20,636 bases of DNA from Rhodococcus sp. IEGM 1379 (GTDB taxonomy: Bacteria > Actinomycetota > Actinomycetes > Mycobacteriales > Mycobacteriaceae), in assembly GCF_030056815.1 (NCBI RefSeq), contig NZ_JASHKR010000047.1:16233-36868 (forward strand). The letters run 5' to 3'. The position numbers were made by a program, and so were the translations under genes. The notes beneath the pieces are model-generated. The model was not told where the DNA came from and ran no database searches. It was given only the letters and a program-made list of their open reading frames with translations. Shown here in pieces: positions 16,629-18,411 of the stretch (the first letter of the stretch is position 1; each line of letters starts with the position of its first letter).

Positions 16629-17576
16629 GTGCACCCGGAAGGGGCGGCGCGGTTTTGGGCGACCCCGCGCAATCAGGACAAGATCATGTCGCGATTGAAG
16701 CAGGGTGATGTCGTTCTCTTCACGGGCAAGAATCATGTCCGCGCTATAGGTGAAGTCGGTGCTATCTTCCGCAATCCGGACGCGGGCAACGCGATGTGGC
16801 CGCCGCAGTCGACACACGGCCCGTATCTGAATGTGTACTCGCTAATCAGCTTTCAGGAAACCGAGATCCCTTACACCGATCTCCGTAAGCTCACCGACAC
16901 CCCGGATTCCAAGGGCGGGGACAACTACATGGGCGCCCGGCTCTACGACAATGATCGAGCAGCGCGGATCCTCGACGGTCTGCTGATCGAAACGGCCACC
17001 GAACTCGCTGCTACCGAACTCGCTGCTACCGAACTCGCAGCTGCCGGGGTCCACGTCGCCCCGTTGTGGGACCAAGGCGCCGTTGTCCGGGCGGAAGCCC
17101 ACAACACCAACTCCGCCACCGGAACATCCCAAGCCCGCACATTCGTGGCCGATCGCGCGGAGGCGCGACTCGTCGTCGACTACAAGAACTTCCTCCGCGC
17201 CAGTGGTGACCGACGTAGTCAGCAGCGCCTGAAATCGATAGTGGGATTCTCCGACATCTACCTCCTCCCCGACACCCCTGGCAGTGGTGCCGCCGAGATC
17301 GTGGAAGCGAAAAGTTCCCCCGCGCACGGCAAAGTACGGGAAGCGTTGGCGCAGCTACTCGACTACGTCATCCACGCCACCGCCGAGGTCGACGCACTGA
17401 CAGCGTTGTTCGAGGGGGCACCGAGTGCACGCGACATCCACTGGCTCGGCAATTACGGGATCAGGTGCGCCTTTCGCGACGGCCAAGGCGGTTTCGCCAC
17501 TATCGCCCCGCCTGAGTCCCGGGTGTCGGCGATGAAAGCGGTGTGGCAACCCACCGGCCCGGTCGGCGCTCTGTAG
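16629..17576 (+). CDS. Fusion of an N-terminal EVE/PUA-like domain and a C-terminal PD-(D/E)xK nuclease-like domain; candidate modification-dependent (Type IV-like) restriction endonuclease
   Basis: The N-terminal ~110 aa resemble EVE/PUA-like folds (RFWATPRNQDKIMSRLKQGDVVLFTGKNHVRAIGEVGAIF). The C-terminus carries a D...(13)...E-x-K arrangement in a beta-hairpin context (VGFSDIYLLPDTPGSGAAEIVEAK, then QLLDY), as in PD-(D/E)xK nucleases. A (TELAA)x3 linker repeat separates the domains. GTG start; the ORF is open a further ~25 codons upstream without a canonical start codon. Confidence 0.6.
   Translation: MHPEGAARFWATPRNQDKIMSRLKQGDVVLFTGKNHVRAIGEVGAIFRNPDAGNAMWPPQSTHGPYLNVYSLISFQETEIPYTDLRKLTDTPDSKGGDNYMGARLYDNDRAARILDGLLIETATELAATELAATELAAAGVHVAPLWDQGAVVRAEAHNTNSATGTSQARTFVADRAEARLVVDYKNFLRASGDRRSQQRLKSIVGFSDIYLLPDTPGSGAAEIVEAKSSPAHGKVREALAQLLDYVIHATAEVDALTALFEGAPSARDIHWLGNYGIRCAFRDGQGGFATIAPPESRVSAMKAVWQPTGPVGAL
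16999..17043 (+). repeat. 15-bp x3 tandem repeat (ACCGAACTCGCTGCT) encoding the (TELAA)3 interdomain linker
   Basis: Seen directly; the third copy has one substitution. Confidence 0.85.
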
Positions 17577-17733
17577 AGAGGCCCGGGAAGACAGCGTCGT
17601 CACGCGAATCAGGGATATTTCGGCGGATACACGACAAACTCGTCACGTCGGGAGCCGGACCACGCAAGTTACCTAGTTGAAGAAGTTCACGATCCGCGCC
17701 ACGAAACACGCTGATTTGGAAGGTAATTGGTCG

Positions 17734-18411
17734 ATGGCATTGATCTTGCTGCAGCCCGCGGCCAACAAGGATTCTCAGGGGCACTACGAGGACACGGTCA
17801 CCAACTTCGTTGCGCTCGAAGGGTTTCAGGGATTGCCGGCCGCGGATCTCGAGATACTTCGGACCGCGTTCCCGGCGGGCCAGTTGCAGGTCTGGGGCAC
17901 CACCCCCGCTCTCGACGGCCGTAACGTGAAGCAACATGCCAAGCTCAAGGCCGGTGACCTGGTGTTGTTTGTGAAAGACAACATGGCCTTCGCGGCTGGG
18001 CGTATTCGCCATACCTTTCGGAGCAAGGAGATCGCCGAGAAACTGTGGCCCGCCAAAGTCGCCGACGACGGGCCCACGTGGGAGTTGATGTACGCGATCG
18101 ATAGCGTGCGAGAGCTCAGCATCAAGGTCCCGGACATCAACGCCGCGGTCGGATACAAACCGACGAACTACATTCAGGGCTTTACGGTTCTCGACCAGGA
18201 CAGGAGCGACAACGTACTCAATCTCCTGGCGCCACTCGAGTTCGAGGTCGATGCCGAACTCGTGATCGTTGCCGACCCCGACGGCGGTGAACTTCCAGGA
18301 TTCAAACCGAAGGACGATTCCGACTATCGGGCAACGATTGTCGGGCACACGCAGACAAAGACCCGCCTGCATGAGCGCATTGTCGCGACGTACGGGACCG
18401 CGGCGTGTTGA
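17734..18411 (+). CDS. Standalone paralog of the EVE/PUA-like domain (alternative TTG start at 17677); the C-terminus looks like the start of an HNH motif cut off by a stop
   Basis: Paralogy with the N-domain of the preceding gene is clear: VWGTTPALDGRNVKQHAKLKAGDLVLFVKDNMAFAAGRIRHTF versus FWATPRNQDKIMSRLKQGDVVLFTGKNHVRAIGEVGAIF. The protein ends ...KTRLHERIVATYGTAAC-stop, which resembles the R..I...YG..C(xxCG) lead-in of McrA-type HNH domains. Confidence 0.6.
   Translation: MALILLQPAANKDSQGHYEDTVTNFVALEGFQGLPAADLEILRTAFPAGQLQVWGTTPALDGRNVKQHAKLKAGDLVLFVKDNMAFAAGRIRHTFRSKEIAEKLWPAKVADDGPTWELMYAIDSVRELSIKVPDINAAVGYKPTNYIQGFTVLDQDRSDNVLNLLAPLEFEVDAELVIVADPDGGELPGFKPKDDSDYRATIVGHTQTKTRLHERIVATYGTAAC

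What the first reader, a model, noticed from the sequence alone, without database searches (positions are those of the whole stretch)
16629..18411. Two adjacent genes share a paralogous ~80-aa N-terminal reader-like domain with different C-terminal partners
Alignable blocks: FWATPRNQDKIMSRLKQGDVVLFTGKNHVRAIGEVGAIF...AMWPPQSTHGPYLNVYSLISFQETEIPYTDL versus VWGTTPALDGRNVKQHAKLKAGDLVLFVKDNMAFAAGRIRHTF...KLWPAKVADDGPTWELMYAIDSVRELSIKVPDI. Tandem duplication with effector-domain swapping is a hallmark of rapidly evolving defence loci. The second copy has a ~50-aa N-terminal extension and a different tail.
Basis: seen in the sequence. Interest (0 to 1): 0.6.

Follow-up and report, generated by a model that had tools for sequence, protein, structure and literature searches.

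The report
Two broken modified-DNA restriction nuclease paralogs
The two neighbouring Rhodococcus genes are diverged copies of one unnamed enzyme type, a modified-base "reader" domain joined to a DNA-cutting domain that probably restricts modified phage DNA. Both copies are damaged in this strain, so the "different tails" are breakage, not a swap of effector domains.

Summary
The similarity is real: BLASTP gives 28% identity over 123 aa (E 9e-10), and Smith-Waterman z is 13.6 against 1000 shuffles.

Intact relatives show that both genes have the same architecture:
- a disordered linker;
- a C-terminal PD-(D/E)xK nuclease with conserved D…ExK.

The family profiles align over 301 columns (hhalign E 9e-30).

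In this window, gene 1 really starts at 16482 and carries a C→T nonsense codon (TAG, 16557-16559). That codon hides its own "N-terminal extension". Gene 2 really starts at 17734 and loses all homology at 18405/18406, so its catalytic core is gone.

The best reading is two decayed type IV-like, modification-dependent restriction genes. They sit downstream of a DCTPP1-like MazG gene in a Rhodococcus defence island, probably on a megaplasmid. The two are ancient paralogs, not a recent tandem duplication. Each also occurs alone and intact elsewhere.

Domain shuffling does occur across the wider reader family (fusions to Shedu nuclease, HNH, a McrB-type ATPase, and methylase+NACHT), but not between these two genes. 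This is a new, Pfam-unannotated member of a known kind, of modest interest.

The parts
15838..16485 (+). MazG-like / DCTPP1-like NTP pyrophosphohydrolase gene (long, internally duplicated form). Its stop overlaps the true start of gene 1 (ATGA).
   Evidence: Pfam MazG-like is weak, 18.6 bits. phmmer against PDB matches dCTP pyrophosphatase 1 / RS21-C6 at E 1e-16. The short form in L002 gives E 5.6e-31 and Pfam 45.9 bits. tblastn gives two half-domain hits. The ATGA overlap is seen.
16352..16430 (+). Perfect 36-bp tandem duplication (2.2 copies) inside the MazG-like gene. It adds 12 aa (VAKIDANERRYP) relative to the 203-aa orthologs.
   Evidence: TRF. Orthologs in L001, L004 and L007 are 203 aa against 215 aa here.
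16482..17576 (+). Gene 1, full-length reading frame (364 codons): reader-linker-PD-(D/E)xK nuclease, interrupted by a nonsense codon.
   Evidence: Translation MSTSVLIQPSFGNPQARKNYSKTLA*PFPF.... It is 85-91% identical to intact 357-362-aa homologs P0002-P0009.
16557..16559 (+). In-frame TAG stop at codon 26 of gene 1. It is CAG (Gln) in three orthologous loci, so this is a C→T nonsense mutation.
   Evidence: DNA alignment of the window with L001, L004 and L007; protein alignment.
16482..16991 (+). Reader domain of gene 1 (aa 1-170). PUA-like β-barrel with an N-terminal helical sub-domain. Includes ARFW (16647-), GDVVLF (16704-16721) and MWPP (16791-).
16998..17046 (+). 15-bp tandem repeat (3.3 copies; TELAA×3) in the disordered inter-domain linker of gene 1.
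   Evidence: TRF. The linker has pLDDT below 50 in the model. Homologs have a single ATEYAATAELAA.
17142..17573 (+). PD-(D/E)xK nuclease domain of gene 1, with catalytic residues intact: helix E (RAEARLV, 17154-17177), D258 (17253-17255), E275-A-K277 (17304-17312), and the QLLDY motif (17337-17366).
17734..18411 (+). Gene 2 (225 aa + stop), a paralog of gene 1 truncated at its 3' end.
   Evidence: Homologs and NCBI protein P0114 start at MALILLQP. A GGAAGG Shine-Dalgarno-like motif lies upstream of ATG 17734.
17734..18237 (+). Reader domain of gene 2 (aa 1-168), intact.
18364..18411 (+). Remnant of gene 2's nuclease domain. Only the first helix (RLHERIVATYGTAA) remains, followed by the breakpoint at 18405/18406, two foreign codons and a stop. 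The D…ExK core (about 105 aa) is missing.
   Evidence: Protein alignment A2. blastn homology to L004 ends at 18405. The DNA alignment shows unrelated sequence after ...ACCGCGGCG. No trace of the missing domain appears in any downstream frame.

Best explanation
The region holds a three-gene cassette: a DCTPP1-like MazG pyrophosphatase, then two diverged paralogs of one unnamed single-polypeptide enzyme family.

Each paralog, when intact, has three parts:
- an N-terminal PUA-like (YTH/EVE-like) domain of about 170 aa, which I infer flips out and reads a modified base in DNA;
- a flexible linker;
- a C-terminal PD-(D/E)xK nuclease.

This is the architecture of a type IV (modification-dependent) restriction endonuclease. 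Many pocket-region residues that are invariant in one paralog family differ in the other. The pair therefore probably covered two different modifications.

In this strain the cassette is decaying. Gene 1 has a nonsense codon at codon 26. Gene 2 has lost its catalytic core to a rearrangement. The MazG-like gene carries a fresh 36-bp in-frame duplication.

Shown: homology, architecture, fold, conserved catalytic motif, the lesions, and occurrence of each type alone.
Inferred: modified-DNA specificity, the defence role, different specificities, and loss of function.
For: Homology and architecture:
- Pairwise and shuffle statistics.
- Full-length profile-profile homology, E 9e-30 over 301 columns.
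- Intact homologs of both types: P0002 360 aa, P0115/P0116 about 330 aa.
- The gene 2-type nuclease domain on its own hits gene 1-type nuclease domains at E 5e-6.

Fold and motif:
- D, E-x-K, helix-E/H and QxxxY columns are invariant or nearly so across 102 sequences.

Wider family and context:
- The same reader domain is fused elsewhere to SduA_C nuclease, HNH_2, an AAA_5 (McrB-type) ATPase, and N6_Mtase+NACHT, which is typical of DNA-sensing defence modules.
- No universal partner gene was found, and no methyltransferase among the nine recurrent neighbour clusters tested, across 80 loci.
- Sister loci show defence-island context.
- Literature: PUA-type reader + HNH or PD-(D/E)xK fusions are experimentally validated modification-dependent enzymes (PMC6765204). 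YTH-like domains related to TgMcrB fused to PD-(D/E)xK nucleases were noted computationally (PMC7641849). TgMcrB-NTD prefers N6mA DNA (PMC7544203).

Lesions.
Against: - No sequence-profile membership in any curated reader family. Pfam, NCBIfam and PADLOC give no hits. EVE reaches E 0.24 in 1 of 26 readers, and TgMcrB only E 1.5 in a PDB profile search.
- No biochemical data exist for any member, and the modification recognised is unknown.
- YTH and PUA domains can bind RNA, so an RNA target is not excluded.
- The TAG could be a sequencing or assembly error in a draft genome.
- A protein re-initiated at GTG 16629 or ATG 16686 (annotated by NCBI as 296 aa, P0001) might keep some activity.
- A DNA methylase gene lies about 4.4 kb from the homolog in L008. 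Absence of a cognate methylase was checked only through recurrent neighbour clusters.
Confidence: 0.72

Rival explanations
1. One reading: a recent tandem duplication of a reader domain followed by effector-domain swapping, so that the two genes couple one sensor type to two different effectors.
For: Adjacent, same strand, with a shared reader domain.
Against: - Intact gene 2 homologs carry the same PD-(D/E)xK domain as gene 1. The window's 'different tail' is a breakpoint at 18405/18406.
- The paralogs are only about 22% identical. Gene 2's reader is nearer to readers in other architectures.
- Each type occurs alone.
Confidence: 0.05
2. The two proteins are obligate partners (a heteromeric two-subunit enzyme), and the MazG-like gene is a third subunit, forming a three-component system.
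For: The same gene order (MazG-like, gene 1, gene 2) recurs in at least three independent Rhodococcus contigs: the window, L004-L006 and L007. MazG and gene 1 are translationally coupled through an ATGA overlap.
Against: - Gene 1 type is intact without gene 2 in L001, and gene 2 type is intact without gene 1 in L002.
- All 80 other loci hold a single full-length copy.
- In every tandem locus seen, at least one copy is broken (window, L004, L007), which argues against selection for the pair.
- MazG-like is adjacent in only 6 of 80 loci.
Confidence: 0.07
3. The family is not a defence nuclease. It would be a housekeeping or repair/RNA-processing enzyme, for example a NucS/EndoMS-like or Hjc-like nuclease, or an RNA-modification reader-nuclease.
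Against: - Distribution is patchy and not universal, limited to Actinomycetota.
- The genes are frequently pseudogenised.
- They occur on megaplasmids and in islands with CRISPR, Thoeris, TerD and HNH.
- Reader fusions are to Shedu, McrB-type and HNH modules.
- The top structural match is a restriction-system DNA reader.
Confidence: 0.08
4. The window copies are still functional. The TAG would be a sequencing error or be bypassed by re-initiation. The truncated gene 2 would act as a stand-alone reader, for example a regulator, or a blocker of modified DNA without cleavage.
For: - Both remnants are long intact ORFs, annotated by NCBI as proteins (P0001, P0114).
- Gene 1 keeps all catalytic residues, and gene 2's reader is complete.
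- An isolated SRA reader domain of ScoA3IV was reported to partially attenuate T4gt infection (PMC6765204).
Against: - Re-initiation at 16629 or 16686 would remove β1 and three helices (or more) of a confidently modelled compact domain.
- Three independent lesions in one cassette, plus different lesions at the same locus in sister strains, look like neutral decay.
Confidence: 0.12

Closest known systems
PUA-superfamily reader + PD-(D/E)xK/HNH modification-dependent restriction endonucleases (type IV MDREs: MspJI/AspBHI SRA-PD-(D/E)xK; VcaM4I/TspA15I EVE-HNH; Lutz et al. 2019, PMC6765204)
   Same: - Single polypeptide with an N-terminal PUA-like β-barrel reader, a flexible linker and a C-terminal nuclease.
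- Usually no adjacent methyltransferase.
- Located in defence islands.
   Different:
- It has an extra N-terminal β-strand plus three-helix sub-domain.
- The nuclease is a small PD-(D/E)xK closest to AF1548/NucS-type folds.
- No activity or specificity has been measured.
YTH-like N-terminal DNA-binding domain of Thermococcus gammatolerans McrB (PDB 6P0F/6P0G; Hosford et al. 2020)
   Same: - Also part of a type IV restriction system.
- Bell et al. 2020 noted homologs of this domain fused to PD-(D/E)xK nucleases.
   Different: - There is no GTPase motor and no McrC.
- Sequence similarity is only marginal (E 1.5).
- The source is bacterial (Actinomycetota), not archaeal.
ScoMcrA (Streptomyces coelicolor; head-SBD-SRA-HNH type IV enzyme)
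   Same:
- ScoMcrA_N-HNH_2 genes lie in the sister islands.
   Different: The window genes have no head domain, no sulfur-binding domain, no SRA and no HNH. The nuclease is PD-(D/E)xK.
DCTPP1 / RS21-C6 (MazG-like all-α dCTP pyrophosphatase) — for the upstream neighbour
   Same: Clear sequence homology: E 5.6e-31 for the short form and 1e-16 for the window's long form. The EvgEL and EvaDv metal-binding motifs are conserved in the first half (sequences).
   Different: - It is bacterial and translationally coupled to a nuclease gene.
- The long form is an internal duplication whose second half has lost the acidic motif.
- The window allele has an extra 12-aa duplication.
- The substrate has not been tested.

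Membership tests
Type IV modification-dependent restriction endonuclease (reader-nuclease fusion) | Modified-base reader domain of the PUA superfamily (SRA/EVE/YTH-like fold) | tested here: met
   [not shown]
Type IV modification-dependent restriction endonuclease (reader-nuclease fusion) | Nuclease domain with a complete catalytic motif (PD-(D/E)xK: D…(D/E)xK) | tested here: met
   - Window: gene 1 retains the motif (17253-17312). Gene 2 has lost it.
Type IV modification-dependent restriction endonuclease (reader-nuclease fusion) | No cognate protective methyltransferase in the operon | tested here: inconclusive
   The window cassette has none. None of the nine recurrent neighbour clusters tested across 80 loci is a methylase. 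However, only recurrent clusters were scanned, and L008 has a DNA_methylase gene about 4.4 kb away.
Type IV modification-dependent restriction endonuclease (reader-nuclease fusion) | Cleavage or restriction depends on a DNA modification | not testable with these tools
   This needs enzyme assays or phage/plasmid challenge with defined modifications.
Type IV modification-dependent restriction endonuclease (reader-nuclease fusion) | Aromatic/hydrophobic pocket for a flipped modified base | tested here: inconclusive
   W59, F96 and W106 (P0002 numbering) are conserved in both families and in 26 diverse readers. I could not superpose the models on 6P0G to show that these residues line the pocket.
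Pfam EVE (PF01878) / YTH / SAD_SRA families | Score above the family's gathering threshold | tested here: not met
   No Pfam hit for the window ORFs, P0002 or P0115. Among 26 reader domains, EVE reaches E 0.24 in one.
McrBC | AAA+ GTPase McrB subunit plus McrC nuclease | tested here: not met
Neither gene nor the window neighbours have an AAA_5 or McrC domain.
ScoMcrA family | Head + sulfur-binding domain + SRA + HNH architecture | tested here: not met
   Only the head domain (PF26345) appears, and only in longer Streptomyces members. It is absent from the window genes.
MazG-like / DCTPP1 (upstream neighbour 15838-16485) | Homology to all-α NTP pyrophosphohydrolases with the acidic metal-binding motifs | tested here: met
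   PDB phmmer to DCTPP1/RS21-C6: E 1e-16. Pfam PF12643 is below the gathering score for the window's long form (18.6 against 27) but above it for the short ortholog-like gene in L002 (45.9). Activity was not tested.

The most novel reading that the evidence does not exclude
The pyrophosphatase destroys modified dNTPs. That would either starve phages that build hypermodified DNA, or prevent salvaged modified nucleotides from entering host DNA and triggering self-restriction. The nuclease meanwhile cuts DNA that already carries the modification. The two paralogs would cover different modifications.
Probability: 0.2. Interest if true: 0.6.

Novelty: new member of a known kind. Interest (0 to 1): 0.3.

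Why it matters
- The finding defines a sizeable family with no Pfam, NCBIfam or PADLOC annotation. An exhaustive search gives 3,839 cluster representatives at E ≤ 1e-3 and 240 at E ≤ 1e-30. The full-length reader-nuclease form was recovered from Actinomycetota in the genome scan. The family is probably made of modification-dependent restriction enzymes whose reader is most like the archaeal McrB YTH-like domain.
- Such enzymes are useful as epigenetic tools, and they explain barriers to transforming Streptomyces and Rhodococcus.
- The case shows how pseudogenisation can mimic "domain swapping" when raw ORFs are read.
- The recurrent but facultative link to a DCTPP1-like pyrophosphatase is a testable lead on coupling nucleotide-pool sanitation to type IV restriction.

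Tried and rejected
- Pfam, PADLOC and NCBIfam scans of the window ORFs and intact homologs gave no hits.
- PDB sequence/profile searches with the full-length family (A1) and a reader-only profile (A4) gave nothing significant. TgMcrB reached only E 1.5.
- The phage database held no near match to the region. In plasmids, only Rhodococcus megaplasmids matched.
- I looked for the missing gene 2 nuclease domain in other frames downstream and found none. I also looked for repeats or IS ends at the breakpoint and found nothing convincing.
- I tested whether MazG-like is an obligate partner and rejected it: 6 of 80 loci.
- I tested for any universal neighbour or methyltransferase by clustering neighbour ORFs. 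There is none. The commonest clusters occur in 9 or fewer of 80 loci (Schlafen-like helicase, nucleotidyltransferase, pheST). The GC3 filter in that script was crude: it recovered the query gene itself in only 34 loci.
- Recent tandem duplication is rejected on divergence and on the affinities of the reader domain.
- In-register homologous recombination as the cause of the L004 deletion is rejected. The end points are gene 1 aa ~151 and gene 2 aa ~49, which are not equivalent positions.
- A literature search for MazG plus type IV restriction found no paper containing both terms.
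Full report
**Source and setting.** The window is 100% identical at protein level to a 36.9-kb contig of Rhodococcus sp. IEGM 1379 (P0001, P0114). GC content is about 62%. The nearest complete record is the 486-kb linear plasmid RQCS_2 of R. qingshengii CS98, at 88-89% nucleotide identity over window 14380-17652. No phage record matches.

**Checking the observation.** ORFs 16629-17576(+) and 17677-18411(+) exist and contain the quoted peptides.
- BLASTP between them gives 28% identity over 123 aa, E 9e-10.
- The Smith-Waterman score is 106, against a mean of 33.9 (SD 5.3, maximum 59) for 1000 shuffles, z = 13.6.

The similarity is real.

**What the raw ORFs hide.** A search with gene 1 found 113 homologs. 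The close ones (85-91% identity) are 357-362 aa and begin MSTSVLIQPSFGNPQARKNYSKTLAQPFPF….
- That N-terminus is present in the window, in the same frame, starting at ATG 16482. It is interrupted by TAG at 16557-16559.
- Three orthologous loci have CAG at that position, so this is a single C→T nonsense mutation.
- Read from 16482, gene 1 aligns with gene 2 from its residue 4, and the score rises to 130 (z = 17.8).
- Gene 2's homologs and the NCBI annotation begin at MALILLQP (ATG 17734), not at the upstream TTG 17677.

The "~50-aa N-terminal extension of the second copy" is therefore 19 spurious residues plus a sub-domain that gene 1 also has.

Intact gene 2 homologs are 326-333 aa (P0115, P0116, P0118). 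After …HERIVATYGTA they continue into …PRDLTL…WLVEVK…AVVGQLFEY…. In the window, homology stops at 18405/18406, immediately after YGTAA. Unrelated DNA follows, with a stop two codons later. No downstream frame contains the missing domain. The "different tail" is a truncation.

**Same architecture in both.**
- Profile-profile comparison of the gene 1 family (98 sequences) with the gene 2 family gives probability 99.8%, E 9e-30 over 301 aligned columns. This covers both the N- and C-terminal domains.
- In a joint alignment of 102 sequences, D254, E271, K273 (P0002 numbering), R221, R282 and Q287 are at least 99% conserved in both families. The helix residue E223 is 96% conserved in the joint alignment and is His in the gene 2-type representative P0115. 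Together these form a canonical PD-(D/E)xK pattern.
- The gene 2-type C-terminal domain alone hits gene 1-type nuclease domains at E 5e-6.

- Next come the EVE protein PH1033, YTH domains (YTHDC1, Mmi1, CPSF30, YTHDC2), ASCH, THYN1 and the EVE-HNH restriction enzyme VcaM4I.
- The C-terminal domain matches AF1548, NucS, Can2/Card1, Hjc and many type II restriction enzymes.

Pfam, NCBIfam and PADLOC give nothing. EVE reaches E 0.24 in 1 of 26 readers. TgMcrB appears only at E 1.5.

**Comparison with the literature.**
- PUA-type reader + HNH or PD-(D/E)xK fusions are experimentally established modification-dependent restriction endonucleases (Lutz et al. 2019, PMC6765204).
- Bell et al. [quoted passage not shown]
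- TgMcrB-NTD binds N6mA DNA preferentially, as summarised in PMC7544203.

The architecture is thus a known kind. This particular family is unannotated.

**Family size and modularity.** An exhaustive HMM search of 1.84 billion representatives found 3,839 proteins at E ≤ 1e-3 and 240 at E ≤ 1e-30.
- Readers occur fused to the Shedu SduA_C nuclease (P0191), HNH_2 (P0222, weak hit), an AAA_5 McrB-type ATPase (P0259), N6_Mtase+NACHT giants (P0203, P0220), and an inserted SRA-like domain (P0189, weak hit).
- Gene 2's reader is 33-44% identical to several of these, but only about 22-25% identical to gene 1's reader.

Effector shuffling is real in the superfamily, but it is not what distinguishes the two window genes.

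**How the pair arose and how it is decaying.**
- A scan of one genome per species recovered 142 loci, of which 80 were fetched: Streptomyces, Kitasatospora, Actinomadura, Kribbella, Mycobacterium, Rhodococcus and others. Every fetched locus has a single full-length copy; L032 additionally has an upstream reader fragment.
- Gene 1 type alone and intact follows the long MazG-like gene on plasmid RQCS_2 (L001).
- Gene 2 type alone and intact follows a short MazG-like gene in Rhodococcus sp. IEGM 1366 (L002).
- The tandem order MazG-gene 1-gene 2 is seen in three further Rhodococcus-like contigs, and it is always damaged. L007 has an intact gene 1 but gene 2 split across three frames. L004-L006 carry a 943-bp deletion (window 16937-17879) that removes gene 1's nuclease and gene 2's N-terminus. 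The window has the nonsense codon and the 3' truncation.

With about 22% identity, and with gene 2's reader closer to other architectures, the pair is an old paralogy or an accretion of two cassettes. It is not a recent tandem duplication.

Many residues that are invariant in gene 1-type readers are replaced in gene 2-type readers: H51→F, R57→Q, F58→V, E91→R, N98→S, Y131→V. W59, F96 and W106 are shared. I take this, by inference, to mean a common base-binding scaffold with different specificities.

**The neighbour.** ORF 15838-16485 overlaps gene 1's true start by ATGA. It is homologous to dCTP pyrophosphatase 1 / RS21-C6, at E 1e-16; the short form in L002 gives E 5.6e-31.
- The long form is an internal duplication.
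- The window allele has an additional perfect 36-bp duplication.
- MazG-like genes lie within about 1 kb of the nuclease gene in 6 of the 80 other loci. The association is recurrent but facultative.
- DCTPP1 is described as hydrolysing methylated or other base-modified dCTPs and preventing their misincorporation (PMC13291643 and PMC4491611 abstracts).

A functional link, pool sanitation combined with restriction of modified DNA, is attractive but purely inferential.

**Verdict.** The "different partners / effector swapping / tandem duplication" idea is not supported for these genes. The most likely mechanism is type IV-like, modification-dependent cleavage by a reader-tethered PD-(D/E)xK nuclease (confidence about 0.72). 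In this strain both copies are probably non-functional remnants.

Noticed in passing
window 15956-15987 (inside the MazG-like gene); L002 3404-3435: A 32-nt spacer of the type I-E CRISPR array of Rhodococcus sp. IEGM 1366 matches the window's MazG-like gene 100%. The array has a 29-nt repeat, GTGCTCCCCGCGTATGCGGGGATGAGCCC, in about 26 copies next to cas genes. The spacer also matches the same gene in L004-L007. The base 5' of the protospacer (C, 15955) equals the last repeat base. This suggests the cassette rides on a mobile element, probably a megaplasmid, that a sister strain has targeted.
   Followed up: partly
window 16352-16430: A perfect 36-bp tandem duplication (2.2 copies) lies in the C-terminal helix region of the MazG/DCTPP1-like gene. 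It is absent from the 203-aa orthologs in L001, L004 and L007, and is a third fresh lesion in the cassette.
   Followed up: partly
window 16998-17046: A 15-bp repeat in 3.3 copies (TELAA×3) sits in the disordered linker of gene 1. Homologs have one irregular copy, so linker length is evolving by slippage.
   Followed up: no
window 15838-16485: The long MazG-like protein is an internal duplication of the approximately 119-aa DCTPP1-like unit. The acidic motif (GEVGEL … EVADV) is kept in the first half and degenerate (GAVGLL … ELADR) in the second, giving a possible fused pseudo-dimer (sequences).
   Followed up: partly
window 13338-14321 (-) and 19664-20485 (-): Two HNH-type endonuclease genes flank the cassette. 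The first has a strong HNH hit (E 2.6e-12), weak PADLOC REase_II/mREase_IV hits, and a weak IscB/Cas9d HNH-region hit. The second is only marginally HNH-like (E 0.008-0.017), with faint PDC-M01B hits.
   Followed up: no
window 14558-15232 (-): A DUF3761 protein with an N-terminal membrane helix and a long Thr/Pro-rich linker. It is conserved next to TerD genes in the sister loci L001, L002 and L007.
   Followed up: no
window 3737-10390 (-): A giant 2,217-aa ORF with PQQ-like β-propeller and LamG/concanavalin-like domains at its N-terminus; the rest is unannotated. A flotillin/SPFH gene lies at 1653-2849 (-).
   Followed up: no
window 10433-12175 (-), 12403-12933 (+), 18761-19258 (-): Three ORFs of 580 aa, 176 aa and 165 aa have no hit in Pfam or NCBIfam. 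The 580-aa ORF also has none in PADLOC. The 165-aa ORF has an N-terminal signal-peptide-like sequence.
   Followed up: no
L004 1466-2731 and 9231-16392; L007 1-1320 and 12703-13089: Sister islands around the cassette carry ScoMcrA_N-HNH_2 genes, an RE_AspBHI_N + DNA-SBD_ScoMcrA gene, a Thoeris-like SIR2/STALD gene and several TIR genes. Several different modified-DNA sensors are concentrated in one island.
   Followed up: no
L032 4433-4741: In one Streptomyces locus, a fragment of a gene 2-like reader (aa 14-115, 30% identity) lies between a MazG-like gene and the full-length gene 1-type gene. This may be another remnant of a former tandem pair.
   Followed up: no
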